Shown: positions 20,766 to 42,806, counted from the stretch's first letter. The stretch is DNA of 64,000 nt from Flaccisagitta enflata (GCA_965153355.1 OZ231126.1:16926001-16990000), one strand, 5' to 3'. Program-made: numbers and translations. Notes: generated by a model from the sequence alone, not told the origin.

Positions 20766-21264
20766 TTTTCTCTATAAATCACACATGAGCAAGTGACAGG
20801 TTTGACTAGGAGTATGGAAATAAAAAGATTAAAAGAAAATATGATCGCCTGCATGAGCAATTGACAATTTTTCTCTCTCATTTGGGTGATTTTATCGAAT
20901 TTCGATATAAATTTTAGAAAAACAGCTTAACTTTTTTCCAAGGAAGTACCTACTAGCTAGTGGTCGTATAGACAGGAAGGGGCGTGGAAAAGGGGAAGGT
21001 GTTTTGGATGGAGATGTGGAGGATGCAGTCGGATTTTGGAAGGATTGAGGGGGGCGGGGGATAGTAGTTACATATATAGGGTTTAACTATGTTTTTTTTG
21101 GATGGGTTTCTGATCCTTGTAACAAGCTAGATTAGATAAAGGAAAGGCGCTAGTGATACATTATTTTTACATATATTTGTAACAAGCTATACTGCGCTTT
21201 GACACTAAGTTCATCTGTTTCTGTTTGGGTAGAGCTAGAAGAAAATTGTTTTAGTCTGACTTGA

Positions 21265-21537
21265 TCAGGAGTTGCATCTCCTATCATTGTTGTTTTTCTT
21301 GTTGTGATGATTGTAGTTGTTGTTGCAATTCTTCCATTCGATGAAGTCACACTCAGACCACTGATGGCAAAACCTTGCTTTTATTTCTTCTTTTATTTCT
21401 AATAAGGTGTAGTCCAAAAAATTGATGCGTTGACACACTTCCAAATTGGTTGAATGCAATTCTTTAGGAGCATCCTTATCCAAAAGTCGTAATATATAGG
21501 CTCCTTGACACAAAGCCATGGTTTCAATCACAGTCAC
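21265..21537 (-). CDS. Hypothetical protein (90 aa), left accessory cassette
   Basis: Non-repetitive ORF overlapping the end of the upstream ORF in a co-oriented cluster. Confidence 0.45.
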   Translation of the reverse strand: MTVIETMALCQGAYILRLLDKDAPKELHSTNLEVCQRINFLDYTLLEIKEEIKARFCHQWSECDFIEWKNCNNNYNHHNKKNNNDRRCNS

Positions 21538-21865
21538 ATGGGTTTTTCCTTTGTTTTCTTTCCTCTAATTTCTGTCGATTAAGAAGTTCCTTGTGATAAA
21601 GCTGACATAACTCCAGGGTCAGATTGGCGACACTCTCTATAACCGCATTGACTTCTTTTCTCACTTTGCCCAAATGCCGGTCACTACGATCACATTGAGC
21701 AGCCGTTTCCAAATCTCTTGTCGCTTCCTTATTGTATCGATTCGCTTCTGATTTTATTTGGTTTAAATGACCAAATATATCATGCGCATTTTCCAAAATG
21801 TAATTTGGGATGTGAATTTGTTCTCGCTTTAGTCGAGCAAATAGCCTCTCAGAATGATGAGCCAT
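21524..21865 (-). CDS. Hypothetical helical/coiled-coil protein (113 aa)
   Basis: ATG-initiated ORF with normal composition in a tightly packed cluster. Confidence 0.55.
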   Translation of the reverse strand: MAHHSERLFARLKREQIHIPNYILENAHDIFGHLNQIKSEANRYNKEATRDLETAAQCDRSDRHLGKVRKEVNAVIESVANLTLELCQLYHKELLNRQKLEERKQRKNPCDCD

Positions 21866-21962
21866 TTTTACAAATTCTCTCCTTCAAAAAGATCGAATCC
21901 TAACATACATATATATTTTTTTTATTGAAGTGATTAAAGTGCGTTACGAGATTGAGTATAGT

Positions 21963-22391
21963 TTAGAACATGTTACAATCAAATAGGAAAAAAACAGAAT
22001 GAACATTGCATTTACAATCTCTAGGATCAATTTCTTGATTTGCAAGATGTAGATATTTCGCCGCATTAGCTCTAAGGTTGTCCACTTCTGATTTCTTCAG
22101 CTTTAGAATGCTTCCAAAAGTAGAGTTAAGTCGTATTTCTCCTGGATTCATGTCAGGGCTGATGTGTACATCGTAGTAGTTTGTTTTATCATGACGATCT
22201 ATAAATCGGTAACCTGAGGTTGGATCGATGGCGCCAACCAGTTTCATGAATTCACAGAAGGCAGCAACAGTGTCGAATTCATGTTGCATGTCAAGTATTG
22301 TTCCAGCAACAATATTTAGTTTTATTTGTTTGTTTGGGTAGAATGTTAGAATTGCTGTGCCAGACAGCCGATGGAGAATTTTACATGGCAT
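21963..22391 (-). CDS. Hypothetical protein (142 aa)
   Basis: ATG-initiated ORF with globular composition, directly downstream of the SPSB-like gene. Confidence 0.6.
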   Translation of the reverse strand: MPCKILHRLSGTAILTFYPNKQIKLNIVAGTILDMQHEFDTVAAFCEFMKLVGAIDPTSGYRFIDRHDKTNYYDVHISPDMNPGEIRLNSTFGSILKLKKSEVDNLRANAAKYLHLANQEIDPRDCKCNVHSVFFLFDCNMF

Positions 22392-22438
22392 TTTCTGTAG
22401 AAGTCAGTGAATGAATTATGTCGAAGACAGTGAATGAA

Positions 22439-23278
22439 TTATGTCGAGACTCCGATAGTGGGAGAACACACATAAAGCGTTAAAATAAAAGGTAGAGATT
22501 TAAATGGATGCTTTTCTCCTACAGTGAATGAATTATATGGCTCTTGGACTTCAATTTGATTCCTGATAATTTTACGACAAGAAAACAATAGTGAAGGTGG
22601 GATTCCTCCAAGATATTGGCAAGTTACTTCTGCACGTCCAAAAACTACATTAACAATTGGGAAAAGTCGTTTTCCATGGATATTTTTAAAAGCAACGCCT
22701 AAATATTCATTATCAACAATAAAAGCTAGCGTGCCTAAGTTCATATCTAAAATCATTTTAAAGGTTTCGGGAATAGTGATGTGCTTAAATCTGTTTTCGT
22801 TTTTGATAGGGTACGATTCGGCGCTGTTGTTAATTAGATGAGAGTGATAAAGTTTATTTTTACTGATGTCCCAGCCCCAACTGTCTTCAGAGGATCCGAC
22901 AACGGAGGCGTATCCATAGCTGCGAATGCGAGCGTTTATTTCTGCGACCCCTACTATTGCATGTGTTCCACGTTTCTGTGTGGCCCATTTAAATTCCCAA
23001 GCGTGAATTCCATTAGTATATCCTTGCTTCGTGCGAATGCAGTCAGTGCTACTCGTAATCGGCTGTCGATAAACTGTGTTGAAATCGTTTTTTTTAATCG
23101 ACATAAAGGGTGATTTGTCATTAGGGTTCCATGAATGCGCTTTCTGTATGTTTTTGTTGACTGGCGGAAGATTGAGTAGGTCTTCAACACGGGGAGGAGT
23201 TGGAGGAATGTCATGAGGGTATTCACGCTTGAATTCTTGAATTGTCAAATTATGCATTTTGAAAAGCTGGCTATACAT
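22439..23278 (-). CDS. SPRY-domain SOCS-box protein (SPSB/gustavus-like), intronless
   Basis: HSWNPNDKS, RQPITSSTDCIR, GIHAWE, RGTHAIVGV, SWGWDI, LDMNLGTLAF, YLGVAF, LFPIVNVVFG; BC-box-like PPSLLFSCRKIIR. Confidence 0.9.
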   Translation of the reverse strand: MYSQLFKMHNLTIQEFKREYPHDIPPTPPRVEDLLNLPPVNKNIQKAHSWNPNDKSPFMSIKKNDFNTVYRQPITSSTDCIRTKQGYTNGIHAWEFKWATQKRGTHAIVGVAEINARIRSYGYASVVGSSEDSWGWDISKNKLYHSHLINNSAESYPIKNENRFKHITIPETFKMILDMNLGTLAFIVDNEYLGVAFKNIHGKRLFPIVNVVFGRAEVTCQYLGGIPPSLLFSCRKIIRNQIEVQEPYNSFTVGEKHPFKSLPFILTLYVCSPTIGVST

Positions 23279-23317
23279 TACATTCTTGAATTGATAACAA
23301 AAAAAACAATTTGTAAG

Positions 23318-23905
23318 TTACATATGTACTTGAATTCCATTTCGAAAAGGGCAGCGACAGACTGGACATTTAGGTCCTACAATTGGTTGTAAATGAAGAT
23401 AACATTCATAACAGACGCAAAGATGAGAGCAGCCTATTAAAAGCATATTTGCTACGCGAGTTAAACACACTTTACATCGTATTTTGATATATAGCGGCTC
23501 ACATTGATCACGCAATACGTCAAAGTTTCTAGAATCTAGCGCGTGACTAAGAGGTGTTAAATCTTCAGATTTTGGTTCTCGGGGATTTATATCTCGTTCG
23601 TTTCTAACAAATTCGCACAGAGGAGAGTATCTTTCATGCTGGTCAAGGGGGTCCTGAACATAACACCGTCTCAATTCTACTCCGCATTTAAAACATTTGA
23701 CTAAGCCAACGTCTGAATTAAGCATATAAAATCCTGCTTTTGCCAAAAGAGCGGGTGCTTGAAAGCGATATCTAGGCCAATTTTTGAAAGAATGGATGCG
23801 GTCTTGTAGACAACTGTAATCTGGGTCCCATAGTGAAAACAATGGGAAATGTCGAAAGGGAGATGAGATAAAAGAATCTTGGAAGGGGGAGGAGTGTTCA
23901 TCCAT
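23318..23905 (-). CDS. iap: Inhibitor of apoptosis (single BIR + C-terminal RING), intronless
   Basis: BIR: RIHSFKNWP...LAKAGFY...VKCFKC...DPLDQHERYSPLCEFV; RING: CKVC...GCSHLCVCYEC...CPVCR. Confidence 0.93.
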   Translation of the reverse strand: MDEHSSPFQDSFISSPFRHFPLFSLWDPDYSCLQDRIHSFKNWPRYRFQAPALLAKAGFYMLNSDVGLVKCFKCGVELRRCYVQDPLDQHERYSPLCEFVRNERDINPREPKSEDLTPLSHALDSRNFDVLRDQCEPLYIKIRCKVCLTRVANMLLIGCSHLCVCYECYLHLQPIVGPKCPVCRCPFRNGIQVHM

Positions 23906-25868
23906 GATTTATATAATTAAGAGATTAAGGAGTTAAATACCGTACAAGGTAAAAGAATAAAAAATACCGTTCAAGGTAAAAAAATCATATCCTTTTGGAT
24001 AAACATTTATTTTTTTTTTATTTTTTTTTTAATTTATCGTCGCTGTCTTCGTCGATGGAAGAGGAAGAAGAAGAGGAACAGGAAGAGTTAATGACGGGAA
24101 GTCTTGGACCACGCCGCCACCCCTCTAACGAAGGGAGTGGAGCCGCTTTCGCCTCCGCTTTCGCCTCCGCTTTCGCCTCCGCTTTCGCCGCTGTTGTTGT
24201 CGTCGCTGGAGAGAGGGTCTCCGGTTCTGGCGGGGCCGCAAATGACGGCCTCCTCCTCATTCGAAGTGGAGGAGCGTGTGGAGGCGTATTTACGTCTGTC
24301 TGGAATAAGAGGCGATAGAGGGAAAAAAGGGTGAAGAAAAAAATCAGAAATGCGGGATGATGCAATGTTGTTCCAAAGACGCAGAATAACTGAAAACTAG
24401 CTAAAAGTATATGTTGCTATGTCTATAAAATAAAATAAGCAAACATTCCCGTTATGTGAAAAACCAAACAATTATGTATACCTTGTTCTCATTTAGGCTT
24501 TGAAGTTCATATCTCGGTTGAAAGATATGAGATGTTAATAGGGTTTGTGTTGGGTGCATGCGCGTGCAATGGAGAGTGTTGTGGCTGCATATGTGGTGTG
24601 ATTATGGGTTATGTGTGTGAAAGTGCTTGTAGAATTAAACGGTAGTGTTGTTTGTTGAGCCGTCTACATCTCCTCTCCTCTCCTCTCCTCTCCCACGACC
24701 CATACTTCTCCGATACGTCATCCCCCTCATCAACTGATTCTTACTCCTCTGTAACATCTTTCTTTTCCTCTCTTGCAATTCCCTTTCTCTCCTACACTCT
24801 CTCATCTCCAATTCGATATCCCTCAGACGCCAAAATACTCTCTGCACCTCCGACCTCTCTGTTTCTCTTTCCTCTTCTTCCTCTCTTTCATCCACTTCAT
24901 CTTCATCTTCATCTTCATCTCTTTCATCCTCCAACGTCTGGCGCGCCCTCTCCCTCTCCTCCTCCTCCTCCTCGTTATCTGACGACCCAAATATGTGTGG
25001 TGCGTGCGTGTTTTGAGTTTGTTGGGAAGATAGCTGTTATGACAGTAAAAAAGTTGCTAGAGGTTATTTCTCCTTTGAAAGTGAAGTGGGTGGTGGTAAC
25101 TGTCACAATGTCTTTAGTGATTTAACAAGAAACTTACTGTGTTCATAGAGACCGGCGTGACGGGCATGGCTTGGCGACGCCCCTCCCTTCTCTTCTTGAA
25201 GAAGATGACGCCGACGATGACGCCTCCGACCACCAGAACCGTCGTGAGGGTTCCAAAGACACTCAATCTGTAGTAAAGAAAAAGTATTTTGACTATTAGT
25301 AATAGTAGTAACCTCAGTAGTTTTAGCGGGATGCAGTTTGTGTTTTAGAGGATGCAGTCTGCCTTGTAGTAACCTCAGTAGTTTTAATGGGTGTAGTTAT
25401 ATCAAATTTGACTTACAAAATAATTTCTTGATTTGGATCGACCGTCTGATCGAATTTTTCATCCGTTTGCTCGCCGTTATCCGTTTGTTCGCCGTCAGCC
25501 GTTTGTTTGCCGTCCGCAGTTGTTGAATGAATGTTTGCTGATTGTCTGTTGTCCGTAGTAGATTGTATGTTTGCTGATTGTTTGCCGTCTGTAGACTGAT
25601 TGACGACCGTGGATTGTTTGTCGTCTGTAGATTGTCTGATGGACGTAGTTTGAATGTTTACTGTTTGTCTGTTGTCTGTAGATTGATTGACGACCGTAGT
25701 TTGTATGTCTGCTGTTTGTCTGTCGTCTGTGGATTGATTGACGACTGTAGATTTTATGTCTGCTGTTTGTTTGCCGTCTGTGGATTGTCTGGCGATCGTA
25801 GAAGATATTTCCGTTTGTCTGCTGTCTGTTTGTTTGCTGTCTGTGGATTGGCCGACAATTGTTTGTAC

Positions 25869-26086
25869 GAGAGAATGTCCGCCGAGAGAATGTCCGATAA
25901 GAGAATGACCGACGAGAGAATGTCCAAGAGAAGAATGTCCGACGAGAATGTCCGACGAGAGAATGTCCGAGAGAAGGTCCGACGAGAATGTCCGACGAGA
26001 ATGTCCGACGAGAATGTCCGAGAGAACGTCCGACGAGAGAATGTCCGAGAGACTGTCTGACGAGAGAATGTCCGAGAGAATGTCCG
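25869..26086. repeat. Minisatellite, ~13-bp unit GAGAATGTCCGAC
   Basis: Visible tandem array with variant units. Confidence 0.9.
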
Positions 26087-26238
26087 CTGTCTGTTTGACG
26101 TCCGCAGTTCGATTGATGGCCGTTGATTGATGTCCGTTGTGGCCGTTTTCTGTCTGTTTGTATCTGATGATATCGTCCGACGGCCGTTTGTTGATCTGAA
26201 ATTGATTGGAGTTAAGATAGAGTTAAGTTTGGATAAAG

Positions 26239-26580
26239 ACGAGATTGAGTCGAGATTGAGTCGAGATTGAGTCGAGATTGAGTCGAGATTGAGTCGAGAT
26301 TGAGTCGAGATTGAGTCGAGATTGAGATTGAGTCGAGATTGAGTCGAGATTGAGTCGAGATTGAGTCGAGATTGAGTCGAGATTGAGTCGAGATTGAATC
26401 GAGATTGAATCGAGATTGAATCGAGATTGAATCGAGATTGAATCGAGATTGAATCGAGATTGAATCGAGATTGAATTATGATTGAATCGAAATTGAATCG
26501 AGATTGAATCGAGATTGAGTTAAGATTGAGTCGAGATTGAGCGAGATTGAGTCGAGATTGAGTGAGATTGACGAGATTGA
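26239..26580. repeat. Minisatellite, 11-bp unit GAGATTGAGTC/GAGATTGAATC
   Basis: Visible tandem array. Confidence 0.92.
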
Positions 26581-28173
26581 GGGTGATTGAGTTGATTGAG
26601 AGTTGAGGTGATTGAGTTGAGTGAGTTGAGTTGAGTTGAGTTGAGGAGATGAGTTGAGATTGAGGGGTGATTGAGTTGAGGGTGATTGAGTTGAGGGTGA
26701 TTGAGTTGAGGGTGATTGAGTTGAGGGTGAGAGGAGGGGATTGAGGATGGGAAGGAGGAGGATGATGATTGAAGATGAAGATGAGATGAGAGAGGGAGAC
26801 GGAGAGGTGAGAGTAGAAGTAGAAGGAGAGGATGGAGAGTTGAGGGCGGCCGCCAAAGCTTGAGAAAGCCAAGCTTTCAAAAGTTTTATGGCGGCCGGAG
26901 TAAGAGCTTTAGGAGAAAGTTGAGAAGGAAGAGGAGGAAGTTGAGAGGGAAGGAAAGGAGCAAGAAGTGAAGGAAGGAGAGGTCGACGACGAGGAGTTGG
27001 TGGCGGGTTTAGGCGTGGGAGCGGTTTCGTGGGTTGGTGAGGCGGTGATGACGGCGGCGGTGTAGAAGATGGAAGGAGTGAAACGGAAGAGGAGAGAGAG
27101 GTTGACGGAGAGAGTGAGAGAGTTGATTGAGACGACAGAGAGGAAGACGTTGAGGCTGAAGAGGAGAGAGAAGTTGACGGAGAGAGTGAGAGAGGCGGTT
27201 GAAATGATAGAGAGGAAGATGATGAGGAAGCGGAGTGGTAGAGGGAAGAAGAAGAGGCTGTTGGAGGCGTTGTTGAAGGAGAAGGATGGAGTGAGGAAGA
27301 TGAGGAAGAGGAAGCCTCCTGCACCTCCAACCAGGAGCGCCACGCGTCATTAACACAAGCTGGAGGAGTGGAAAGAATGAAAAAAAATTGAATTAAAATA
27401 TTGTCAGAGAATAGGTACAGAGGATAAGTCTATGAAGCCCATCTATCTGCCATGTCTGAGGATAAGTCAAAAAAACATAAATTTCGAAGAATGTGTCAGA
27501 AGAAAAAAGTTATACTTTTAAAAAAGTGTATCAGGCAATGCTTCATGATGCTCTCCCATGTACCGCTGGTTTTGCTATTTATGCTATTGCTACAAGTTCT
27601 ATAAAGATGAGCAAAAGAGCAATTACGTTCATCCTCCAAACGGTTGCACAAGCGCAACGACTTCATTTCCGTGTATCTAAAATTAAAAAAAGTTGAAGAA
27701 TTGTAATGCCTTGACATAGCCTCGAACTCCAGATTTTTTGAAGCGCAAGCTGGGGAATGAAGTAGTACTATCCAGAGAAACTGCTTTTATTCTTTTTTCC
27801 ATGTTAAAATGCTGTCAAATCGCGAACATTGTTTATGTTATTCTATGAAGCACTTTTTCAGTTGGATTGATTCGTTGGTCTCTCGCTCTCATTCGCTCTC
27901 ACTCTCTCTCATTTACTCTCTCTCACTCACTCTCTCTCGCTCATTCTCTCTCTCGCTCATTCACTCTCGCTCGCATTGAGTGAACAGTGCTAGTGAACAG
28001 ATGGAATGAACAGCTGATTGAACAGTGACAGCTTTTCACTGTCCTATGTTTACACTTACTGGCAATTAATTACGACCTCCAGCTTACAAAAGCTGAGGAA
28101 GCGGGCGTGGTCGTAGCGGACCGTTGGTGGAGCGGAGACGCCGGTGAAGAGGAGGAGGAAGAGGAGGAGCGCC

Positions 28174-28336
28174 ATGACCGCCGAATGACTGCCGAATGAC
28201 CGCCGAATGACCGCCGAATGACCGTCGAATGACCGCTGAATGACCGCCGAATGACCGCCGAATGACCGCCGAATGACCGCCGAATGACCGCCGAATGACC
28301 GCCGAATGACCGCCGAATGACCGCCGAATGACCGCG
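28174..28336. repeat. Minisatellite, 11-bp unit GAATGACCGCC
   Basis: Visible tandem array. Confidence 0.92.
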
Positions 28337-28631
28337 CTGAATGTTTGTCACTTTAATGTATTATAATCTGAGTAGGTTGGATAGGAAAAGCGGTTAGAGT
28401 GATAGACTGCAGTCGAGTTATAGAAAGGCGAACAAAGCAAAAAGCAGAGATTCAGAGATTATGAAGATATTTGTTGTTAACAATCGATTTGGTTTAATTA
28501 AATCATACGGGTTCTAGGCTTGACACAGATGAGCAAACAAGCGGGGATAGTTACGTTAGGAAAAATCCATGAAAAGACGCTAAAAGCGATACGAAAAATT
28601 ATGGATCGTGTTTTTTAACGTGTTTTGTATC

Positions 28632-29899
28632 TTAATGTTCCTCCAGTTTTCTTTTTTTACTCTTTTCGAGTAAACGTAAAGCCATTGGCAGTTTTCCATC
28701 AACAGATACATGAGTATTTTTAGCTCCGGAAGGTTTGGCAGTAGAGACTTTCCATCCTAACTTAGTAAAGATTTCATTCGCGCTTAGATTGGAGTACATT
28801 CGGTCCAGCATGCCTCCTCGCATTTTTGAATCCATTTTCTCCCATTCTGAGATATCTGATTGAGAAAAAAAGGCGGAGAAGGGAAAAGCGAGTTGGTTTT
28901 CTTGAGACTGTCACAGCAAGGAGAAAGTTGTAGGCGGTTGGACAGGAGTAAAAAATGCTCAGTACCTATATCGCAAGTTTTGCATCTGTCTTTATCGCAG
29001 GAGATTTTGTGTTTGTTAAGGTGCTCGATAACGTACAACTTGAAAACGTTTTCCTAGAAGTTCAAATCATGTTGGTAAGAATCGCCGAAACGGTTCAGTA
29101 TAGATCAGACAATCGCGATTAAGGATCACTTTAGGAATAAACATACTCTATTATAATCCTCATTATTTGTGTTGTTTAGTGTTGAAGTTGGAATATTTTT
29201 TGATTTCTCTGAAAAAGCCCATGGGTCTTCTTCCGTCTCGCTTTGATCACAATTGTCTTCATCGTCAGAAAATTGAGATTCCGCATGTAAAGCTAAAGCA
29301 TCGCGGTATCCTTCTCGATGCAATGAGGCTGAATAATGAAAAAATATAAGTTATATAAATATAATATATTTTATATAGTATTATATTGTAATATTTTATT
29401 GTTGTACCTACCCTCAAGAAAAAATGCTCTATATAAACGTGCAAATGAATTCAGTCCAAGATACAAGCCAGATCCAGTTGCGACATTATCCAACTAAATG
29501 TAAAAAAAAATGTTTTTAATTTCTTATATATATTGAACTTGTTATATTGAAAATGAAAAAACTTTTGAAAAAAAATATTTACTTACATAAGTTGGAATAA
29601 AGTTTATTGAGTCATCTTGTTTTGTTGGCCGGATGATTTTTTTAAGAGTAATGAAATATCCTCCCGGAACAATATCTCCTAAAAAATATGTTATGTTAGT
29701 TTTTAAGTTCTTGTGTGTAAATAAAGTATAGGTACCCAATTAATAAGTAAATTAGGTTATTTTGTATTTTAAATACCTGATCTCAAAACTGTAGGATTCG
29801 AATGAGATAATTTGGCCGCATAACAAGTATTGGGAATATGGATAGCTTCAAAGCAAAATTCCTTAAAAAAGAATAATTATTGATAATTTAATAATAATA

Positions 29900-29953
<54 letters not shown>

Positions 29954-30503
29954 GAAAAAATAATAAAAATAAAAAAAATCTTACCTCCAGTTTTTTTCTA
30001 GTTTCTGGTGATATTTCTGCATCAGGTGTTTTTGTAGAATCCAATATAAATTGAATTGAATTACAAAGATGCATCAGTATTGAAAAAGCTTGAGCATTAA
30101 TCAAGCCCATCAATTCCACAATAGAAACAGACCAAGTAAGATATCCCTAGGTAAACACAAAATATCTTCAAAATGTATATAAGTTATAGAAACACAAAGT
30201 AAACACAAGTAAACACAAGTAAACACAAAATATTTTCAAAATGTATATAAGTTAAGAATGTTTTTTTTATCAACTATTAGAGATCAATGAAATTACCTCA
30301 TTACTTTTGAAACCCTTTATCTGCCAATCTTTTGAACACTTTTTTTCATCAATTTTGAATAAGTTGAATCCCACATGTTCATTTTTATGATAGAAGCTGG
30401 CCCATCTATCATAAAGAAGGCGAACTGAAAATGTTTCTTCATGATCAATTGGAAATTCATAGAATCCTGGAGTTGCTTGTTCTGGCAGATGTTGCGTTTC
30501 CAT
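28632..30503 (-). CDS. One or two multi-exon hypothetical genes downstream of polB, with short AT-rich introns
   Basis: Coding-like segments (METQHLPEQ...KSNE; ELMGL...KKLE; GDIVPGG...FIPT; HREGYRD...; YVIEHLNKHKISCDKDRCKTC; MDSKMRG...KRKLEEH), several bounded by GT/AG; full model not resolved. Confidence 0.5.
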
Positions 30504-30536
30504 TTTTTTAAAAAAATACTAAAAGAAAAAAAACAT

Positions 30537-32672
30537 TTAATCAACAAAAGCTTTTAAATGTAAAGGAAGTGAAAGACCTCCTGTAGGAGAGTAGAGAGAA
30601 CTAGAAAATAGACGTTTTGATGAAAAAGAACTTAAAATTCCTTTAGTAATAGAGTAACAATAAATATTTCCTCTAAGTTTTTTTAGACTATATTGAACAA
30701 TTTTTCTGGGGGTTTTTTTTTTGATAGTTGCGTTTATAAAATCTTTTTTTGTAACCCCTGATTGTAAACGGCGCGCTATACCCTTAATTTTTTTTGTGAT
30801 AGTAATATTTTTATACCCTCCTAAGTAGTACTGTTTAACACTACTCGAGTAATACGAGAAGACTCCCCCCTCTCTTCCAAAATTCAATTTCTTTTCTTCC
30901 TTGAAAAGCCATCTTCTAGACTTCAAAAATTTACTTAAAAATACATGAGTTGCTTCTAATTTTTTATTATTTTTTATGATTGTTTTATAAAGATCAGAAT
31001 CAGTACTAATACAGCTCCAATCTAAAATTCCAGAAAAAGCTTGAAAGTAAGAGGTTGCTAAATGTTTTACAAGATGTGAATCATAAGGGAATTCTTCTTT
31101 ATTCTCTGCATTGTACTGCTTGATTTGACCGTGTTCCAAAGAAGAAAGAGGTCGTTGAATTGATAGGCAAAGGCTATCCTGAAGAAAAGATAATGAATTA
31201 ATTTTTTTCAATTTTAATGAATTAATTAATTAATAAATTAATCAATTAATTAATTAATTACTCACAGTGTCTGAAAATAGCAGACGACAATTATATCCTC
31301 TCAAAGCCAAACGAGAACAGATTGTGAAGTAGGCTCTGTATAGATATAATTTACTGAAAAAAAAAATTTTAATTAATAAAATATCTAATTATGACGGTTC
31401 ACAAATTGAGCGTTTGCCACTGGTGATTATGATTTGGATACGACGGTTTACAAGTTGTGTTATCTGCCACTGGTAATCGAGATCGAGGTGAGAGCGAGAA
31501 AAGTGGGGGAGGGTTAAATGTGGGAAAATCCCGGACTTAACAAACCCGGCAAGAGAGAGAAAGTTTGAAAACAAAAGACGGGAATTAGGAGAGATCGAGA
31601 GAGATCGCGTATTTAACAAATTCGGTCAGAGAGAAAAAACAAAAGACGGGCCTTGATTTAGATTCCAGGGTATATATATATATGATATATACATGAAAGC
31701 ATACACCTCACACCTTCATACTGCATACCTCATAGCGTAAACACGTGATGAGATGCTGAATTGGTTTTTAGATTCCAAGGTTTGCCGGTCAAAGATAAGT
31801 ATATTTGCATTTTCATTGATATGCAAAAAGGAGAAAAATGATTCTTTTTTGGTGTGTCTAAGAAACATTTTTTTGGAAAGAGTCAAACGCGTGCACAGGA
31901 AACTGCTTTCATTCATATGCATTCTACCTGTAAGAATGATGAAAGGGTGTTGTTTTAAGCAATTGTTCAAGCAGTGATCGTTTCAATAGGGCTCAACACA
32001 TTTTTACAAATTTTTGTCGCTCGGTCGGTAGGTCGTCGGTCGGTCGGTTGGTTAGTCGGTCGGTCGGTCGGTCGGTCGGTTGGTCGGTCGGTCGGTCGGT
32101 TACGCACCCGGAAGACAATTTGAAAGTGACTTGATAATTTTAAGGAGTAGAGGAGATGGATTGAAATTTTTTTGGTTTTGCAGTTTTGTGATCCATTTGT
32201 TGAATATTCTAGCCGAATCACATTTTACAATTTTAAAAATATTGGTGATTGTTAGATCATGAATACAGGTTTGGTATAAAATACATTCAGCCCAAGTAGA
32301 GACTGTGTTTTTTTTCTTTAAAAAACTCATTAATCTACTAGAATTTTCTCGACAGGGGTTTAGATTCGCAGCTTTTGCCCATTGAACTTGTTCTTTCGTC
32401 ATTTCTTGGGCGGTTGCATTGTGCTTGAAAGGTAGAGCTGAAAAATCCATATTTAAAAAAGATGTCTTTGCTTGTTCACGATAAGATAATTCAACTTCAC
32501 AAAAATAAATTATGTTATTTTCAAAAGCTTCATGATAGAAGAAATCAAGGTCTCCCTGGGTCAGAGCTTGAGCTACCATCTCAAATTCTGTTGGTCTTCT
32601 TGTAGATGTACACAGAGTGTAAGATACGCTCATTAAACCTGATAAACAGGACGGATATAAGCTGCGAGAGAG

Positions 32673-32722
<50 letters not shown>

Positions 32723-33509
32723 TGCTTTAGCTTCTAGTAGCAGTACTAGTCGTGAGCGTGCGTCTTTACACCTTGTTGTGTCGGTCTGTCGATCCATCCG
32801 CTCGAAATATTTTTAGTTGCGGACACGCAACTCTATAAGAGTCTTTGTCGGTCGGTCCGTTGGTCGGGCTGTCGGGGAGTGCGAGTCAAAAAGTGTGAAA
32901 ACACGCATTTCCGCCCCTAGCTACCCGTCCGCAACTGGTAGGGCCGTGTATCCAGCCTTGTTACAAGCAAACTAACCTGTTGGCATCTGCATAGATAATT
33001 TGGCGTTGCTCCATGTTTTTAAGGCTGTCTTTCACATCAAGGCCCGTAAAAAATGCATAATTTGAAGAGCTTACGCTATAACCTCCAAGCAGGGATTTAG
33101 CATAGATTTGACTTATCTCAGAATTTAAAAGATGTAATTTTATTGGTTTGTTGGCGTTCTTTGGATCTCGCCCGTTTAATAGATAGCTATTGAGCGAAAA
33201 GCTCGCTGCTGAGATGTAGTAAGAAGGCCAAAGATTGCATATTTTATAAAGATATCCATAGTAGAAAATTAATACATCCATTAGCACAGCGCTGTCCAGA
33301 GCCGAATAAATATAAAAAAGTAAATGATAGTTTGGTATTTTAAAAAATTCCCATAATTTCAAAAAAAAATTATATTCATTTGGGGTCGCTCCCGCGCCTT
33401 TCAATTTTGAATGGAAATGGTCTAGTGGAGGGGGTGTTGTTCTTTGTAAGTATGCAAAGGAGTCCACAAATTCAAAAGGCTGAGAAAAAAGAGAGAATGT
33501 GGGTTGTTT

Positions 33510-33594
<85 letters not shown>

Positions 33595-34138
33595 TGTTTA
33601 TGAGAGAGAGAAAGAGCAAGTCTACCTGGATACATTTGCCTTGCATGATTAATTCAAAGTGGGCTTCAGTGTATTTTAGTTTGCTACAAATTAAATCATG
33701 ACTTCTTGGAAAGATATCCTTGAGAGGCTTTCCACTGTTGAGTTTGGCTTGTTGCATGTCCTTTATAAGCCCGTCCAGACTGTCAAATTATGTGAATACA
33801 AGAGATACAAGAATACAAGAGATTACATTGCAGATTGCAGATTGCAGATTACATTGCAGATTGTTGCAGGGGTTTTTACTTCGTTTGTTTAGAGACTGTC
33901 TTACCTTGCGCTAAGCATAAGATAAGAATCCAAGAACTTATATTGTCGGCTGTAAGGACACCGCGGTATAGGAAGGTTCTTTTTTTTCAATTGTTGTTTT
34001 TCAGCAAAAGAAAGAGAATGATAGCAGCAGGTTGCTAACGAAACGCAACTAAATTTGAGGGTGACGGACGTAATCGTGTTTTTGTCGCTTTTGAAGAGAA
34101 CTTTTGGTCGCTCTGTTTAAATAGAGAGAGAGATAGAG

Positions 34139-34189
<51 letters not shown>

Positions 34190-34553
34190 CAGAACAAAGG
34201 TGAAAGAACGACACCTACCGTAAAGAAGTGGAAGGGTGATTATTTCGCCGTTTTTTCCAATTTGATTAAATTTTTTCATTCCCACTCTTGTTATTATGTC
34301 CAGGATAATTTGCGAATCGTATAAGGCAAAATTGTGCAGTAAAATTGGGATCGTGCTGTTATCTTGGGTCAAATTGACGTTGCATACCTGTGTGGAAGTT
34401 GTACCGTTGAGGTTGAGGTTCAATTGATGAAGAACAGAGATCTGTTCGAAAATTTTCGGTTATTAAATTTTCATGTTGATTCCACCATGTCTAATTCATC
34501 AATTGTTGCATACCTGGCATATATTCATCAAAGACCCGTCGGCGAAATGGGCT

Positions 34554-34596
<43 letters not shown>

Positions 34597-35616
34597 TGAG
34601 CGAGTGAGGAGCGAGTGAGCGAGTGAGGAGCGAGCGAGCGAGTGAGGAGCGAGCGAACGAGTGAGTGAGTGAGAGATGTTGTTACCTAGGCCCTTTATGA
34701 CGTCTAAGTGATTGTGGTGGCGGGCGTGGGCATATTTGTGTGTCGGCCCACGGAAAAAAGCCCCACACGTAAAACAATTTGTAGCTGTTGCGAAGGCGAT
34801 CCTATCTTGTATGTTGACATCTTTCTTAAGATTAGGAATTCCAGGATCTCTAGGTTTAACCTTTTTTTCTATAAATTCGTTTATATGATATAATTTACTT
34901 CTCAAGCCGGTCAAAAAGTGCAGATAGAAATCTTCTAATGAATCGCTGGAATCGTTGAGAATTTTACATTCAACCTCACTAAGGTGTGCTGGGAGTTGGG
35001 CTTGCCATAAGCTATAGGGAGAACTGAGAATCAAACTATATGCCATAGGAATCTGTTTGTATTTTGCCGATTTTGGAGGTTTTGCAGTTGCTAAGTCGAT
35101 ACTCTCATGGTCTAGAGGGACGTTACGACATTCAAAGTCCATTGATATCATGAAGATTGGGGGGAAAAGGGACGATAGTCTAGACCTGTCAAATTTTAGA
35201 TATTTCTTCTTAAAAGTTTTGCTTTTTTTACAAAAGTATTTATTATTGTAGAGTATTGTGTTTTTCACAAAGCGTCTGCCAATGGCATTGGGAGTTCCAC
35301 ACTCTGTAGCTATCGCATGTTGAATCGTGATTCTCGAAAATAGGTTCTTTCCAGTGGGTAAATATTTTGCTGGAATGAATGAAAACAAACAAGGCCGGAT
35401 ACACGGCTACCCCAGTCACGCGTCTCGGAGTGGGCAGGAGCTATATTTAGAGTCTCATCATGGTGAGCAGGAACAGTGAGGCCAAAGACCCCCAAAAAAA
35501 GTAGAATATGACAGCCGGACGGACAGCGGACCTTGGATGGGCGGGCAGGCCGCCAGCGGGTTGTAGAGATTGCGTGGCAAACTAAAAAAAGCGGATTACA
35601 ATCTCTCTCTCTCCTC

Positions 35617-35680
<64 letters not shown>

Positions 35681-37152
35681 CTCTCTCTCTCACCTTCTGC
35701 ATATTTGACAATTTCCATACAGGTGAGTGTTGTGATTTTTATCTTTGAATGATTGAATAAGACGAAATAAGTTGATAATAAGTAGAGTATGCTGATATTG
35801 ATGAAGCGGTTTATTGAGCTTTTTTTTTTTATTCTTTAATGGGGCTCTGATGTCCTCTGAATCTCGTAATAGGTCTATGTTGTAATGCATACGAGGATAA
35901 AATTTTATTTTTGATATTATTATTATAATTTGTATTTTTAGTCGCGGACACGCGATTCTACATCTTGCCGTGTCGGTCGGTAGGTCGGTCCGTCGGTCCG
36001 TCCGGCCGTCACATTGAATTCTGAGCAGTTTTCGCATTGCTGCTCCTGCCCGACCGTCTGCGACTGGCCTGTCGTGTATCCGGAGCAGTAAAAAGGGTTC
36101 CCAGGAATAACTATTTGAAATAATAACTATAAAAATAACTATTTGAAAAAAAAGTTTGAAATCAAATTTTATCGTAGTTTGCACTGTGACCTATGGGGAA
36201 AAAATCTTTTTTATTCCATTTAGAACTAAGTTTGATAGGAAGAAGTGAGAAGCTACGAAGGGAGTCGTTATATTGACAGGAATAGATATTTAAAGCTATT
36301 CCTTTGTACTTTTTAAGGAAAGTATAATGCTTCTGGAAAATTTTGAAGGGTAAATCTTCGATGATATGGAATTGGTCAAGGCTCACGCCTTGATGAAGAA
36401 TGTCAATGTGTCCTAGGTCGATGCTTTGAAGTATTTTTTTGATATGTTTATTACGATTTAGGAGGAATTTCCCTCCATGCGCGACGTGTTCAAATTTAAG
36501 TATGATATTGACTAACACGCAAGTGTTAGTGAAACCGATAGGCGTTCTTGTTCCAGGGTCAATGACGTTTCGTCGAAAAACACTTCTGAGATTTTCATGG
36601 AATTTTCGTTTTTTTTCCTTAGATGTGCTTCCCAAGCCGATAACCCCATGTAGAGGTCTCCGTATATGTACAATATTTCCACTTAAAATCTTTGAGAAAG
36701 TCCAGCCTTAAACATGAAAAAAAAATTTTTACTACTACAGTCAATTCCTGCTTTAGTAGATCTATTAAAGCAAGTTTTTTCATTGTTGATTGATCATTTA
36801 TACCTGATTCCACTCTAAGTTCAATTGTTTCACAGTCTATCATTAAGGATCTTGAAAAGCCGTTTAGCAGTTCGTCAACGATAAGAAGGAGATTTTCTTG
36901 ATTTAAATTAGTAGGGGTAATCCAGTATTCATTTCTATAGCTTGAGATTATTGACATTTTGTTTTCTCTTTCTAAGATTTTTTCAAACTGAACCTCGAAG
37001 CTTAAAAATACTATATATTGATATCCCAATTCAAATAAACTCATAAGATATCTCTTCATGTATATGAAAAAAATGTAGGCCTCTTGCTCGGTCAAAAACG
37101 ATATATCGTCATTTTCTGAAACCCGTTCAAAGACTCGTTTTTGTGACGTTCC

Positions 37153-37187
<35 letters not shown>

Positions 37188-37415
37188 GAAATATTGCAAT
37201 TCTTTTCAGTCGAGGACGCACGAAGGATCTATTACTGTATCCCACCCAACCGACGGTGACTGTCCTGCTGCATATCCGGCCTTGCTCACTTTGAATGAAT
37301 ACATATCATGCATACCTCCGTAAAACGAGTCCATCGTGTATTCCTCTATTCCGAGACTGTTTTCATCCAGCCCTTCAAATAGGTCTCCAAAGACGTCAAT
37401 ATTTTCGTCCATCAT
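30537..37415 (-). CDS. polB: Protein-primed family B DNA polymerase (Maverick/Polinton type), 14 exons, ~1450 aa
   Basis: Exons: 37415-37316, 37151-36804, 36706-36191, 35874-35694, ~35332-34686 (acceptor uncertain), 34551-34514, 34387-34219, 34112-33905, 33779-33626, 33479-32977, 32661-32108, 31927-31729, 31353-31266, 31178-30537. Spliced motifs: ESG|WTF, ExoI MDFEC, CFTC..HARHHNH..CQ|VCN Zn insert, ExoII HNFALYDSQ, FLDSY..SA|SL, GKCIQ|PFEFVDS, ExoIII YSALDSAVL, PolA YADAN|SLYP, PolB KSLSNCLP|G, PolC FSDT|DSL. Confidence 0.93.
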
Positions 37416-37699
37416 GTAGTTTATTGTTTTACCTAGATTTTTGGATTACGAGCATAAAAATAATGATTTATCTATACTAATATAATTTAATGAAAAGCAG
37501 AGATAACTAAATTAAGAGAGTTACGCATTGAAATTATATACATATTTCTCATTTTAAAGTTTCAGTTAGTACATTTATTTTTTCCGTTTCATGCTTTTGT
37601 TTGTAGCTTGATTGCAATGTTCATTTTTTCGTTTCCTTTTTACAGTTGTTTTTTTTAAACGTTTTGCGATTTTTTTCCTAATTTTGGTGTCGTCATCGA

Positions 37700-37965
37700 T
37701 CAAACACGTGGAAACACATGGAGCATCATCATAATCATTATCATCATCCTCAGAAATTGGATTTTTTGGAGGGTTATCATCATCATCATTGTCATCATCA
37801 TTATTGTCATCATCATCATTGTCATCATCATCATTGTCATCATCATCATTGTCATCATCATCATTATCATCATCACCATCATCATCATCATCATCACCAT
37901 CATCATCATCACCATCATCATCATCACTGTTGTCATTATCATCATCATAATCATCATTTCATCAA

Positions 37966-38000
<35 letters not shown>

Positions 38001-38013
38001 ACATCATTATCAC

Positions 38014-38055
<42 letters not shown>

Positions 38056-38976
38056 TGTCATCATCATCATCATCATCATCACCATCATCACCATCATCGC
38101 CATCATCATCATCATCATCATTGTTATCATTGTTGTTATCATCATCATCATCAGCATTGTTATCATCACTGTTGCTATTGTCATTGCTACTGTTATTATC
38201 ATTTTCTTCGTTGTGATCATTTTCTTCATTATCGTTGCTTCCTCCACTGCCGGTGTTGTCGTTCTCGCTGTCAGGTTCTTTGTTTTCCGGATTGTCATTG
38301 CACTCATTGACTTCCATGACCCTCCTCTTTTTTGGATTTGTTAAGTGGTTGGGCTTTTTTTTTATTTCGTGTTTCTTCCTTTCTATTTTTTCATTCTTCT
38401 TTACTTTTTTCATTCTGTTAGTTTTCTCCAGATGGGTGGGAGATTTTTTTGTTATCTGCTTTCCTGTCTTTTTTTTCTCGCTCTTTTGCTTGTTTTGTAT
38501 TGTGACAGAATCTTGTTGTTTTAATCTCCTTTTACCATATTTAGTTGGCCAAACTATATTTTTAGCGATATTGTTGATTAAACCGTTAAAGCTAGTTTTG
38601 TTCTGGTTAGGATTTAGGCTCTCAATAGATTTTGAATCGCTCGGCTTTACTGAAAGGGCTTCTACATTTGAGTGGCTCTTATCATCTGTATTCATTGTTT
38701 TGTTTACGTATTTTCTACATGCGGCTATTAGTTGTTCGCGTTCTTTCTCCTGTCTTTTTTCTTTTAAATAACTAGTCTCGTAGATATTTTTCATTAGAGG
38801 AGTCCCGAAGTACGCACTTCCACTCGTTTGTTTAGCAAGACAAAAATTCTCACTCCAGCCACCCCTAGTAATTCTTAGGAGACTCCTTTAACTAACTCGA
38901 TCCAATATTCTTTCACTTGTCATATCTACGATTTGTTGAAAAAGATGAACACAAAACTACAAGTTTCCATAGAGAA

Positions 38977-39042
<66 letters not shown>

Positions 39043-40722
39043 GGTTAGGAATACTTAAACAGTTAAGCTTTTGACGATGTTTTAAAAAAGATGTTTTAAA
39101 GAGTAAACTTACCTTTTCTGACGAGCGTTATTAAAGATGACGGCGCACATCGAGCAGCTGAGGGAGGGGAGAGGGGTAGGACAAGGGAACATGGAGTTAT
39201 CGCGATTATTGTTTAGGGAACATGACTGACGGACAATCAGGAATGTGCACTTACCGAACTAGCAGAAAGTTATCTAGCATTTTAGATTCTTCAATTGAAG
39301 ATCGTTCGACGGAATTAAGTTTGAGAGACTTGTATGTACGCAAAAATATATCGTCTCCATGATAAACTATGAAAAAAAAAGTCTCGGTGAGTATATGGTT
39401 ATTTCCATGTACTGAAATATGAGATGTGTTGTTATGAAATTGTGTTACCTGTAAAATGCTGATTTGCATGTTGTAAACAACATGTTTTTGAATTGTAAAG
39501 ATCGCCATTTCTAAGGCATAGGACGCAGGTTAAGATAAAAGTATGACTTCCATGAGTCAAAGCGTGGAGTCCTACGAATGTCAGTAGAAAAAACAATTTT
39601 ACTTACCATTTAGACAAGTGTAGCAGAATAGATAATTCAAGGGGGTAAAATAGATGTAAAATGTGCTTACCATGATGATTTTGCCAATGTTTTCTGATTT
39701 CTTCGAAGGTCCATAAAGGCATGACTCTTTGAATATTAATATTTGAAACAGCCTTATTAACAAATTTGTATTTGACTTTCTCAACAGGTTTTACGTCGTT
39801 TGCTGCAGCCGGACAGAGAAAGCAGTTGCTAATAACAGAAGCGCTCAGAAGCTCTTGATCTATGCTGTTAGAATTAAAGATTTTTTTTAAGGAAGCTACT
39901 TCTTTTTTTTCAAATCTTTTGCTCATTCTCAACAATTTCCTATTGGAATAATTTAAAAGACTTTCTTTTCTTTTTGGGCTGTTTTTCAAGAAAAACTCTA
40001 TGTTTCTTAACACGTTTCCTCGGATTTTTTCCAACTGAGCTTTAGAAGCACTTGATAAGCTGTTAAAACTCTCATGAGGTTTAGATTTTTTGTAATCTAA
40101 GAGATCTTCTTTGTAGCGGTTTAGGTAATCGTCGGTCTGTAAGTTTTCACAACTTGTAGCTAACGCCGCTAGGAATTTTACATCAAGATCTATGCGGTTG
40201 TTTTCGTCGTCGTAGTTTTGTAAAAATTGATCCAGAAGAGTCGAGTCAGGAAACGCCACAGCCTGAGCCAACTGGTCCTTGCTCACTCTTGTTAATGCTT
40301 CCTTAACCGGTAACACACCGTCTTGGGGGAAAAGGCTTAGTATTAGATTTAGATTTTCATTTTCTTTAGGAAAAATTTCTTTTAATGTGCTTACGATAAG
40401 ATCTTTCACATCCTGATTCTCGACATTTGTTTGTTGAATGTTATCTTCAAATTGTTTTATAAATGATGATTGCTTTACTATTTCTAAACCTATTTGACTT
40501 TCAAACTCGGCTTCATTTTGTACTGTTGGAGTTATGCTAAGTAAGTCGGGTTGTTGCTTGGTACCCATTGTCAACTGATCTAATTTACTTAGGAAATCTC
40601 GCAAATCTGGATTTAAGATATTTGATTCGGCAAAGCTAGTGTAGTCTATGTGAGAGCTTTTTATTTTAAGAGAGGCCGGTAGTGTTGTTGCTGCAGTAGA
40701 ATTACTGCAAACGGCCATATGA
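37700..40722 (-). CDS. Multi-exon zinc-finger-like protein with Lys-rich and Asp/Asn-rich tail
   Basis: Phase-compatible exons ~40722-39671, 39571-39449, 39411-39255, 39157-39113, probably joining ORF 38794-37700; spliced motifs CFLC..HWQNHH, CVLC..CCLQHANQHFTVH, RCSMC..F; 5' end and last junction uncertain. Confidence 0.55.
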
Positions 40723-40733
40723 TCTGCAAATGA

Positions 40734-40810
<77 letters not shown>

Positions 40811-40975
40811 GAGAGAGAGAGAGTTTAGAATCGAATAGACCCTACCTTCTGCCTTTATCTTTTAGGCCCGGGAAATTACATCACCTACCTCAATAATTCT
40901 TAATGAAGACGTGTTTTGCACCGCAGCTCCTTGTTTGACGCTTATTGGAAAATCGGAAATAAAAAAAAGAATCCT

Positions 40976-41113
<138 letters not shown>

Positions 41114-41136
41114 AGAGAGAGAGAACAGAGAGAGAG

Positions 41137-41399
<263 letters not shown>

Positions 41400-42477: not shown

Positions 42478-42480
<3 letters not shown>

Positions 42481-42566
<86 letters not shown>

Positions 42567-42641
42567 GACAAAGTGATGACAGAGTGACAGAGTGACAGAG
42601 TGACAGAGTGACAGAGCGACAGAGTGACAGAGTGACAGAGT

Positions 42642-42731
<90 letters not shown>

Positions 42732-42806
42732 GACAAAGTGATGACAGAGTGACAGAGTGACAGAGTGACAGAGTGACAGAGCGACAGAGTGACAGAGTGA
42801 CAGAGT

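What the first reader, a model, noticed from the sequence alone, without database searches (positions are those of the whole stretch)
22439..23905. Intronless host-like ubiquitin/immune module: BIR-RING IAP next to SPSB
Two adjacent genes encode E3-ligase-related proteins: an IAP, as carried by baculoviruses and other invertebrate DNA viruses, and a SPRY-SOCS-box adaptor. Cellular SPSBs recruit Elongin/Cullin-5 to substrates such as iNOS and Vasa. Inference: anti-apoptotic and anti-immune or germline-modulating cargo, consistent with a real viral lifestyle. I am not aware of SPSB as standard Maverick cargo.
Basis: partly seen in the sequence, partly recalled or inferred. Interest (0 to 1): 0.75.

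Follow-up and report, generated by a model that had tools for sequence, protein, structure and literature searches.

The report
Giant transposon carries captured ubiquitin adaptor
A 47-kb virus-like Maverick transposon in a marine invertebrate carries, next to a cell-death inhibitor gene already known from such elements, a working-looking copy of a host protein-degradation adaptor (SPSB) with a rebuilt tail, which suggests that it redirects or blocks host protein destruction.

Summary
Observation confirmed. 23318-23905(-) is a BIR-RING IAP and 22439-23278(-) an SPSB/Gustavus-type SPRY protein. Both lie just inside the left end of a 47,460-bp Maverick/Polinton (127-bp perfect TIRs, AGTAGT ends, 6-bp TSD); a second TIR/TSD-bounded copy on another contig carries both. 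They are not host orthologues. The SPSB groups with a separate host paralog (100/98), not Gustavus, has the element's codon composition, shows purifying selection (6 synonymous, 1 non-synonymous change between copies), has five relatives at 62-65% identity that probably travel with IAPs, and appears in plankton RNA assemblies. It keeps 5 of 6 degron-binding residues and the Elongin-C BC box, but its SOCS tail is rebuilt (no Pfam SOCS box, longer spacer, altered Cul5 box), so Cullin-5 use is uncertain. IAP cargo in Polintons is published; I found no report of SPSB. A Vasa target is unsupported (no DINNN-type motif seen) and iNOS was untested. A probable giant retroelement in the same genome holds an SPSB from another paralog. 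Capsid genes were not tool-confirmed. New variant of a known kind; interest 0.6.

The parts
21057..21062 (.). 6-bp target-site duplication GGGGAT (the other copy follows the right TIR, 4.5 kb past the window end)
21063..21189 (+). Left terminal inverted repeat, 127 bp, starts AGTAGT; 100% match to the right TIR at window-equivalent 68396-68522
21063..64000 (.). Body of the Maverick/Polinton element (47,460 bp in all; continues 4,522 bp beyond the window)
   Evidence: collinear with copy at G000:C2:55854521-55903816 in 13 blocks of 87-97% identity
21190..21892 (-). Extra subterminal segment with two short ORFs (21265-21519, 21524-21865), absent from the C2 copy; 98% identical to a stretch beside a P-loop ATPase-like gene of another element
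21963..22391 (-). 142-aa ORF of unknown function, third gene of the cassette; open in both copies; only near-identical homologues found
22321..22326 (-). AATAAA signal about 110 nt past the SPSB stop, where two of three RNA-run contigs end (22320, 22333; the third at 22369)
22439..23278 (-). SPSB/Gustavus-type SPRY protein, 279 aa; degron-pocket residues R71, T105, Y123, V212, G214 kept, F213 in place of Trp; BC box 229-238; remodelled cullin box 260-270
23318..23905 (-). Single-BIR + RING IAP, 195 aa; zinc ligands C71, C74, H90, C97 and RING cysteines invariant among 8 element IAPs
31170..35406 (-). Protein-primed DNA polymerase B, in several exon-like pieces separated by simple-repeat-rich stretches
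   Evidence: Atlas 0.94 to PF03175 clusters for 32964-33653; 87-nt GT-AG intron candidate at 31179-31265; outer limits read by eye
60112..61725 (+). Retroviral-type integrase, in pieces
   Evidence: Pfam rve E 5e-4, below the curated cut-off; 47-49% identical homologues in related elements
61923..63578 (+). 551-aa ORF conserved in related Maverick families (49% identity), probably a virion-module gene; followed beyond the window by capsid-like pieces and a protease-like ORF
   Evidence: identity inferred from gene order and recalled motifs, not tool-confirmed

Best explanation
The two genes are functional accessory genes of an intron-containing Maverick/Polinton. An ancestor of this element lineage captured a lineage-specific host SPSB paralog and placed it behind an IAP that Mavericks of this host already carried (shown: position, ancestry, selection). 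The SPSB most likely still works as the substrate receptor of an Elongin B/C cullin-RING ligase: the SPRY pocket binds a host protein through an Asn-rich [DE]-x-NNN-like degron, perhaps with shifted preference because the pocket Trp is Phe/Tyr; the intact BC box binds Elongin C; the rebuilt tail recruits a cullin, either Cul5 with changed affinity or Cul2 (it fits the Cul2-box pattern phi-P-x-x-phi-x-x-x-phi at 23-25 residues from the BC box); and the host target, a factor that limits the element, is ubiquitylated and degraded (inferred). The IAP probably keeps cells alive while the element replicates, acting as a RING E3 (inferred from family knowledge). The target is unknown; Vasa through a DINNN motif is not supported.
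For: TIRs, TSDs and a second copy. Element SPSBs form one clade (100/100) joined to the host paralog clade (100/98, mixture model; 100/99); AU test rejects a union with host Gustavus, p 5.5e-7. GC3 0.35 against 0.68 for the host paralog and 0.33-0.41 for three core ORFs. 6 synonymous and 1 non-synonymous change between the two copies (P 7.6e-4). Five further full-length relatives at 62-65% identity. Pocket: hSPSB1 R77, T111, Y129, V216, G218 (PMC2923778, passages) align without change to R71, T105, Y123, V212, G214; R71, Y123, V212, G214 are invariant in 6 of 6 element proteins and T105 is Ser in one. BC-box pattern (PMC3355856, passage) in 6 of 6 representatives and 38 of 38 cluster members; terminal L-P-x-x-L-x-x-Y invariant; both tail helices predicted (pLDDT about 50-76). 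Contigs from three RNA runs cover the SPSB ORF and end near its AATAAA. IAP-type dN/dS 0.13-0.34 in 4 pairwise comparisons between and within families.
Against: Pfam does not recognise the tail as a SOCS box in 6 of 6 element proteins. Position 1 of the Cul5 box is K/R/E in 6 of 6, against hydrophobic in 55 of 58 cellular SPSBs scored, and the spacer is 23-25 against 16 in the parent, so cullin binding may be lost. The pocket Trp, called critical in PMC2923778, is absent in 6 of 6 element proteins but present in 72 of 76 cellular ones scored. No degron-like motif in coding-looking frames of 30 kb over the host vasa-like genes. RNA evidence is contig-level from 2 samples of 1 study, chosen because they hold the stretch; the one raw poly(A) run (about 6% read, relation to this host unclear) put no reads on the element, and no run covered the IAP. 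The IAP is interrupted by a stop in the second copy and its BIR lacks residues of the usual peptide-binding groove (XIAP comparison recalled).
Confidence: 0.6

Rival explanations
1. Decoy: the element SPSB binds the degron and Elongin B/C but no cullin, so it shields targets of the host SPSBs (or soaks up Elongin B/C) and stabilises them, for example a germ-line or pro-survival factor that the element needs.
For: Pocket and BC box conserved while the cullin-box half is rebuilt in 6 of 6 element proteins; an incomplete Cul5 box goes with weak Cul5 binding in SOCS1 (PMC3355856, passages).
Against: The last helix (L262, P263, L266, Y269) is invariant across 62-65% identity and keeps the fourth-position proline said to matter most for Cul5; cellular SPSBs also rarely have the textbook LPxP (Pro at position 2 in 6 of 58).
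Confidence: 0.27
2. Self-regulation: the adaptor and the IAP act mainly on the element's own proteins (timing their turnover) rather than on host defences.
For: The two E3-related genes sit together and several element ORFs are Asn-rich.
Against: No [DE][IL]NNN motif in any frame of 100 aa or more across the element (one search printed none); the SPSB appears in RNA-run contigs without its neighbours.
Confidence: 0.07
3. Neutral passengers or misassigned host genes with no benefit to the element.
For: The IAP is broken in one of the two complete copies; related IAP-bearing families have no SPSB hit near them; copy number is low.
Against: Inside TIRs with different TSDs at two loci; separate host SPSB genes exist; open frames kept over about 0.6-0.8 changes per site, GC3 adapted to the element, excess of synonymous changes.
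Confidence: 0.06

Closest known systems
Mavericks/Polintons of animals (adintoviruses; PMC8097293, PMC8502044, passages read)
   Same: TIRs, 6-bp TSD, 5'-(AGT)2//(ACT)2-3' ends, pPolB, integrase, accessory genes in the subterminal regions; IAP and Bcl2 homologues were noted in adintoviruses.
   Different: 47-49 kb against 12.7-24.6 kb for intact vertebrate elements; core genes in pieces with intron-like interruptions, whereas intact vertebrate elements are intronless; SPSB cargo not mentioned (0 occurrences of 'SPRY' in the main text of PMC8502044; its supplementary figures were not seen).
SPSB1/2/4 and Gustavus (Elongin BC-Cul5 substrate receptors; PDB 2FNJ, 3F2O; PMC2923778, PMC3355856, PMC4812663, passages)
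   Same: SPRY fold with N-terminal helices, 5 of 6 named peptide-contact residues, BC box, final helix.
   Different: Trp217-equivalent is Phe/Tyr; no N-terminal extension; 7-9 extra residues between BC box and cullin box; Cul5-box position 1 charged; no Pfam SOCS_box match; encoded by a mobile element.
Nematode Maverick cargo (WASP proteases, KRMA kinases; bioRxiv 10.1101/2022.07.12.499685, passages)
   Same: Host-derived cargo in the region next to the left TIR, exchanged between elements.
   Different: Different protein families; there horizontal transfer between species was shown, here it was not tested.
Burro giant Ty3/gypsy retrotransposons of planarians (PMC6431247, passages)
   Same: Large mobile elements carrying BIR, MATH/TRAF and RING-type domains that touch apoptosis and ubiquitylation.
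   Different: LTR retroelements; no SPSB in the passages read. The C4 element noticed here resembles them more than the Maverick does.
Viral Elongin BC-cullin hijackers (HIV Vif, adenovirus E4orf6, EBV BZLF1; PMC3355856, passages)
   Same: A virus-encoded BC-box protein that can route host proteins to a cullin ligase, often with a non-standard cullin box.
   Different: Those are virus-specific folds; this is a whole captured host receptor with its substrate pocket.

Membership tests
Maverick/Polinton | Terminal inverted repeats | tested here: met
   127 bp, 100% (this copy); 144 bp, 99.3% (C2 copy)
Maverick/Polinton | 6-bp target-site duplication | tested here: met
   GGGGAT and TCTATC, 2 of 2 complete copies
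Maverick/Polinton | (AGT)2//(ACT)2 end motif | tested here: met
   motif as in PMC8097293
Maverick/Polinton | Protein-primed DNA polymerase B | tested here: met
   Atlas 0.94, 24 of 30 hits in PF03175 clusters (family on 39-68% of members); Pfam alone gave no hit
Maverick/Polinton | Retroviral-type integrase | tested here: met
   rve E 5e-4, 20.7 bits, under the 32.6 cut-off: weak
Maverick/Polinton | Double jelly-roll major capsid protein | tested here: inconclusive
   Candidate pieces conserved at 42-61% in related families, but Pfam, Atlas, PDB profile and folding (pLDDT 37) gave nothing
Maverick/Polinton | Adenain-like protease | tested here: inconclusive
   193-aa ORF, Pfam ElaD/SseL-like E 0.039, no PDB hit; 46-50% homologues in related families
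Maverick/Polinton | Packaging ATPase | tested here: inconclusive
   No match to another element's ATPase pieces; a Walker-B-like stretch in 51411-53090 seen by eye only
IAP (BIR-RING) | BIR with CCHC zinc ligands and C-terminal RING | tested here: met
IAP (BIR-RING) | Canonical IBM-binding groove | tested here: inconclusive
   One-residue-shorter loop and no Trp in the window protein, Trp present in 2 of 4 relatives; reference residues recalled
IAP (BIR-RING) | Blocks apoptosis | not testable with these tools
   needs a cell assay
SPSB1/2/4-Gustavus | SPSB-type SPRY domain | tested here: met
SPSB1/2/4-Gustavus | Degron pocket Arg77, Thr111, Tyr129, Val216, Trp217, Gly218 | tested here: inconclusive
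   5 of 6 identical; Trp is Phe
SPSB1/2/4-Gustavus | BC box (S/T/P)LxxxCxxx-phi | tested here: met
   6 of 6 representatives, 38 of 38 members
SPSB1/2/4-Gustavus | Complete SOCS box with Cul5 box | tested here: not met
   No Pfam SOCS_box in 6 of 6; position 1 charged, spacer 23-25. It is an SPSB-derived protein, not a canonical SPSB.
SPSB1/2/4-Gustavus | Binds Elongin B/C and a cullin; ubiquitylates a substrate | not testable with these tools
   needs pull-down and in vitro ubiquitylation

The most novel reading that the evidence does not exclude
Two unrelated giant mobile elements of one animal (this Maverick lineage and a probable giant Ty3/gypsy-like element on C4) each captured an SPSB from a different host paralog because an SPSB-type receptor lets a germ-line parasite destroy or shield a component of germ-granule/small-RNA or innate defence; the Maverick version also switched cullin (Cul5 to Cul2) through its rebuilt tail. 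This would be a transposon-encoded, ubiquitin-based counter-defence, and its bound partners would name the host restriction factor.
Probability: 0.2. Interest if true: 0.85.

Novelty: new variant of a known kind. Interest (0 to 1): 0.6.

Why it matters
Mavericks are inherited in animal germ lines, yet how they cope with host defences is largely untested. A captured, selected and apparently transcribed cullin-ligase receptor with a conserved pocket gives a direct handle: whatever it binds is a candidate host factor that limits these elements. The rebuilt SOCS tail is also a natural experiment on cullin choice, and a second SPSB capture by another element class in the same genome suggests that the benefit recurs. 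The IAP alone would be ordinary.

Tried and rejected
Host-orthologue and outside-the-TIR readings: rejected. 'Loss of LPxP' as proof that Cul5 binding is lost: dropped, since only 6 of 58 cellular SPSBs scored have Pro at position 2. Vasa as a DINNN-type target: a pattern search gave 2 matches, 1 a true vasa-like locus; two tandem vasa-like genes; 1 motif match in 30 kb of minus strand, in a stop-rich frame; the upstream gene's N-terminal exons were not recognised, so that gene is only partly tested. NOS was not examined. DNA context of the relatives: nothing in viral contigs (16 pattern hits, 0 confirmed) or JGI metagenomes (38 hits, 0 confirmed). Complex prediction of the SPSB tail with the C-terminal part of host Elongin C gave no answer (score 0.01, partner fold uncertain); it carries no weight either way. 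Capsid confirmation failed by Pfam, Atlas, PDB profile, tblastn to another element's capsid-like frame and folding. BIR-only tree has little power and found no host donor for the IAP. BFVD fold search gave only distant SPRY/lectin folds; the top hit A0A6G6ZQ49 (313 aa, 20% identity, TM 0.59) is unnamed, so a viral SPSB precedent cannot be excluded. No LTR pair was found for the C4 element in 80 kb. Earlier findings of the scan: none. Literature searches for SPSB in Polintons or viruses listed no such paper; only listings were seen, the top 25 of 66 and 20 of 676, and subscription journals and Repbase are not covered.

Full report
Observation. The window holds two uninterrupted minus-strand ORFs 39 bp apart: 23318-23905 (195 aa) and 22439-23278 (279 aa). 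The first has Pfam BIR (E 7.1e-12) and an IAP-type RING (E 1.6e-9); the second has SPRY (E 7.4e-13) and matches solved Gustavus/SPSB1/SPSB4/SPSB2 chains at E 1e-66 to 1e-48.

Position. The window is G000:C1:16926001-16990000 of a 794-Mb animal genome. A 127-bp perfect inverted repeat runs from window 21063-21189 to window-equivalent 68396-68522, 4.5 kb past the window. The ends read AGTAGT...ACTACT and are flanked by the 6-bp duplication GGGGAT; the element is 47,460 bp. A second copy, C2:55854521-55903816 (49,296 bp, TSD TCTATC), is collinear in 13 blocks of 87-97% identity. These are the Maverick hallmarks given in PMC8097293 (passages). A TIR search gave 6 matches: these two pairs, one right end on C5 whose copy is cut short before the cassette, and a fragment on C2. 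So both genes lie 1.2-2.8 kb inside the left end, in 2 of 2 complete copies. In the C2 copy the IAP has one in-frame stop ahead of the RING; its SPSB has a one-base difference in the first codons but an open frame from the second Met, the 272-aa form that is common among public variants. A polymerase piece scores 0.94 to PF03175 clusters and an integrase piece has a weak rve match. Capsid, protease and ATPase candidates are conserved in related families but were not confirmed by any tool.

Origin of the SPSB. The genome search gave 13 matches: the two copies, three fragment matches at C2:101.41 Mb, a Gustavus-like gene (C9, two matches), a 60%-identical paralog in a single open frame (C5:74.65 Mb, with no dense run of element-like ORFs in 30 kb around it), two more divergent SPSBs (C4:6.50 Mb; C5:43.2 Mb, two matches) and an F-box/SPRY-like gene (C6, two matches; label from my reading of the frames). 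Public collections gave 11 proteins: one 99% identical, five at 62-65%, three host-paralog types with a Pfam SOCS box, and two fragments. Trees of 79 rows (quick) and of 35 rows (13 focal rows plus 22 of the 150 representatives) put the six element-type proteins in one clade (100/100) on a long stem, joined to the host-paralog clade (100/98-99); a union with Gustavus is rejected (p-AU 5.5e-7, LG+G4). Both stems are long, so attraction cannot be wholly excluded, but raw identity (60% against 50%) agrees. GC3 is 0.35 in the element gene, 0.68 in the host paralog and 0.33-0.41 in three core ORFs, which points to long residence. Because the parent is itself in one frame, 'intronless' does not show capture through mRNA.

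Selection and spread. Between the two copies the SPSB has 6 synonymous and 1 non-synonymous change over 274 codons (P 7.6e-4); against two fragments dN/dS is about 0.35; IAP pairs give 0.13-0.34. Among 12 further members of the window protein's cluster, all 12 marked key sites are kept in 9 of 9 full-length members and 26 of 27 covered sites in the three fragments. The IAP search gave 5 clusters at 66-100%; for 4 of the 5 the longest contig length (5190, 1734, 1792, 5184) equals that of a contig encoding an element-type SPSB. This suggests one IAP-SPSB cassette in several related elements, but the contigs could not be read, so it is indirect. A fragment with the same C-terminus as P0003 lies in G000 beside family TIR remains.

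Expression. Contigs from three marine metatranscriptome runs (2 samples, 1 study) cover 22320-23212, 22369-22907 and 22333-22855 with 3, 0 and 0 differences; depth over the IAP is zero in 4 of 4 runs; a raw poly(A) run (about 6% read) put no reads on the element. An AATAAA lies at 22326-22321. This fits an SPSB mRNA, but contigs show neither strand nor level, DNA carry-over is possible, and the runs were picked because they hold the stretch.

Anatomy of the SPSB. PMC2923778 (passages) names hSPSB1 Arg77, Thr111, Tyr129, Val216, Trp217 and Gly218 as peptide contacts. These align to R71, T105, Y123, V212, F213, G214. Trp is absent in 6 of 6 element representatives and 37 of 37 scorable members, and present in 72 of 76 scorable cellular representatives (148 given; 72 did not match my pattern). 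The BC box (pattern in PMC3355856) is present in 6 of 6 and 38 of 38. Pfam finds no SOCS box in the six. The spacer to the last phi-P is 23-25 residues against 16 in the parent and 19 or fewer in 54 of 58 cellular proteins scored (148 given, 66 with a BC box, 58 with both); Cul5-box position 1 is K/R/E against hydrophobic in 55 of 58; but Pro at position 2 is rare in cellular SPSBs too (6 of 58). The terminal L-P-x-x-L-x-x-Y is invariant and fits the Cul2-box pattern, which PMC3355856 places 8-23 residues after the BC box; the Cul5 box contains the same pattern, so this is only a lead. The model has a BC-box helix (228-241) and a last helix (264-271) joined by a low-confidence loop.

The IAP. 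Zinc and RING ligands are invariant among 8 aligned element IAPs. Of 22 genome matches, 8 at 48-52% identity lie about 270-350 bp from an ACTACT end (8 of 8), and two of these loci were shown to carry integrase, capsid-like and protease-like homologues; none has an SPSB match nearby. Further BIR genes sit beside PC4-like or capsid-like ORFs. No close host donor was found. IAP and Bcl2 homologues are already noted for adintoviruses (PMC8502044, passage; its supplementary figures were not seen and might list a SPRY gene).

How it most likely works. Shown: captured, selected cargo in a Maverick. Inferred (0.6): a substrate receptor of an Elongin B/C cullin ligase that degrades a host factor through an Asn-rich degron, with altered cullin use. 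Main rival (0.27): a decoy that binds degron and Elongin B/C but no cullin. Cargo of this kind does not by itself show virions: giant planarian retrotransposons carry BIR and TRAF domains (PMC6431247, passages).

A second capture. At C4:6.495-6.530 Mb a dense run of open ORFs holds TRAF, an SPSB, FHA, ribonucleotide reductase small chain, a gag-type aspartyl protease, an rve integrase and a RING. Its SPSB groups with the C5:43.2-Mb gene (100/100), not with the Maverick one. It appears to be single copy; no LTRs and no reverse-transcriptase match were found, so 'giant retroelement' is probable, not shown.

Novelty. Seven literature searches (listings only) gave no paper on SPSB in Polintons or viruses; the library lacks most subscription journals and Repbase. 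Host-derived cargo next to the left TIR is known from nematode Mavericks (10.1101/2022.07.12.499685, passages) and introns in Polinton-like proviruses from dinoflagellates (PMC11957031, passages). Verdict: new variant of a known kind; interest 0.6; the most novel reading (convergent ubiquitin-based counter-defence with a cullin switch) has probability about 0.2 and would merit 0.85.

Noticed in passing
G000:C4:6,495,000-6,530,000 (L057, L058, L059, L073): Dense cluster of open ORFs: TRAF, SPSB, FHA, ribonucleotide reductase small chain (E 9e-112), aspartyl protease, rve integrase, RING; looks like a Burro-like giant retroelement with its own, independently acquired SPSB. No LTRs or RT confirmed.
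   Followed up: partly
window 28,600-36,700, 60,100-61,700 and L044:176-2351: Core genes of this 47-kb Maverick are in exon-like pieces separated by microsatellite-rich stretches; an 87-nt GT-AG intron candidate at 31179-31265 is in the polymerase region. Intact vertebrate Mavericks are intronless and half the size.
   Followed up: partly
window 21190-21892: Subterminal segment missing from the C2 copy and the C2:101.416-Mb fragment; 98% identical to C6:13.178 Mb, where it precedes a P-loop ATPase-like gene of another element family: exchange between Maverick families.
   Followed up: partly
L016-L024 (C1, C2, C3, C6, C7): Related Maverick families with a BIR-RING IAP about 300 bp from the right end (at least three end types) and no SPSB; the IAP sits at the opposite end from the window element.
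   Followed up: partly
L062 (C4:2.22 Mb), L030 (C1:107.58 Mb), L032-L034: More BIR genes in apparent mobile elements: beside a PC4-like ORF, beside a capsid-like ORF (recalled motif), and in three identical copies beside a RING ORF.
   Followed up: no
window 24018-24650 (-): Ala/Ser-rich ORF upstream of the IAP is also covered by RNA-run contigs in two runs, with a 12-bp repeat-length variant.
   Followed up: no
window 25860-26730 and 28174-28335: Tandem arrays inside the element (15/27-, 11- and 11-bp units, up to 41 copies) around an Arg/Lys/Glu-rich ORF at about 27069-27353.
   Followed up: no
window 20605-20770, also 32035, 32843, 35964, 41919, 53237: A short GTCG-rich dispersed host repeat, very abundant in RNA runs, occurs in the flank and inside the element's intron-like stretches.
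   Followed up: no
G000:C9:66.394-66.414 Mb (L091, L092): Two vasa-like genes in tandem; the downstream one begins with several CCHC zinc knuckles.
   Followed up: partly
window 21963-22391 (-): 142-aa third cassette gene with no family match; 19 near-identical public variants in one cluster but no distant relatives.
   Followed up: partly
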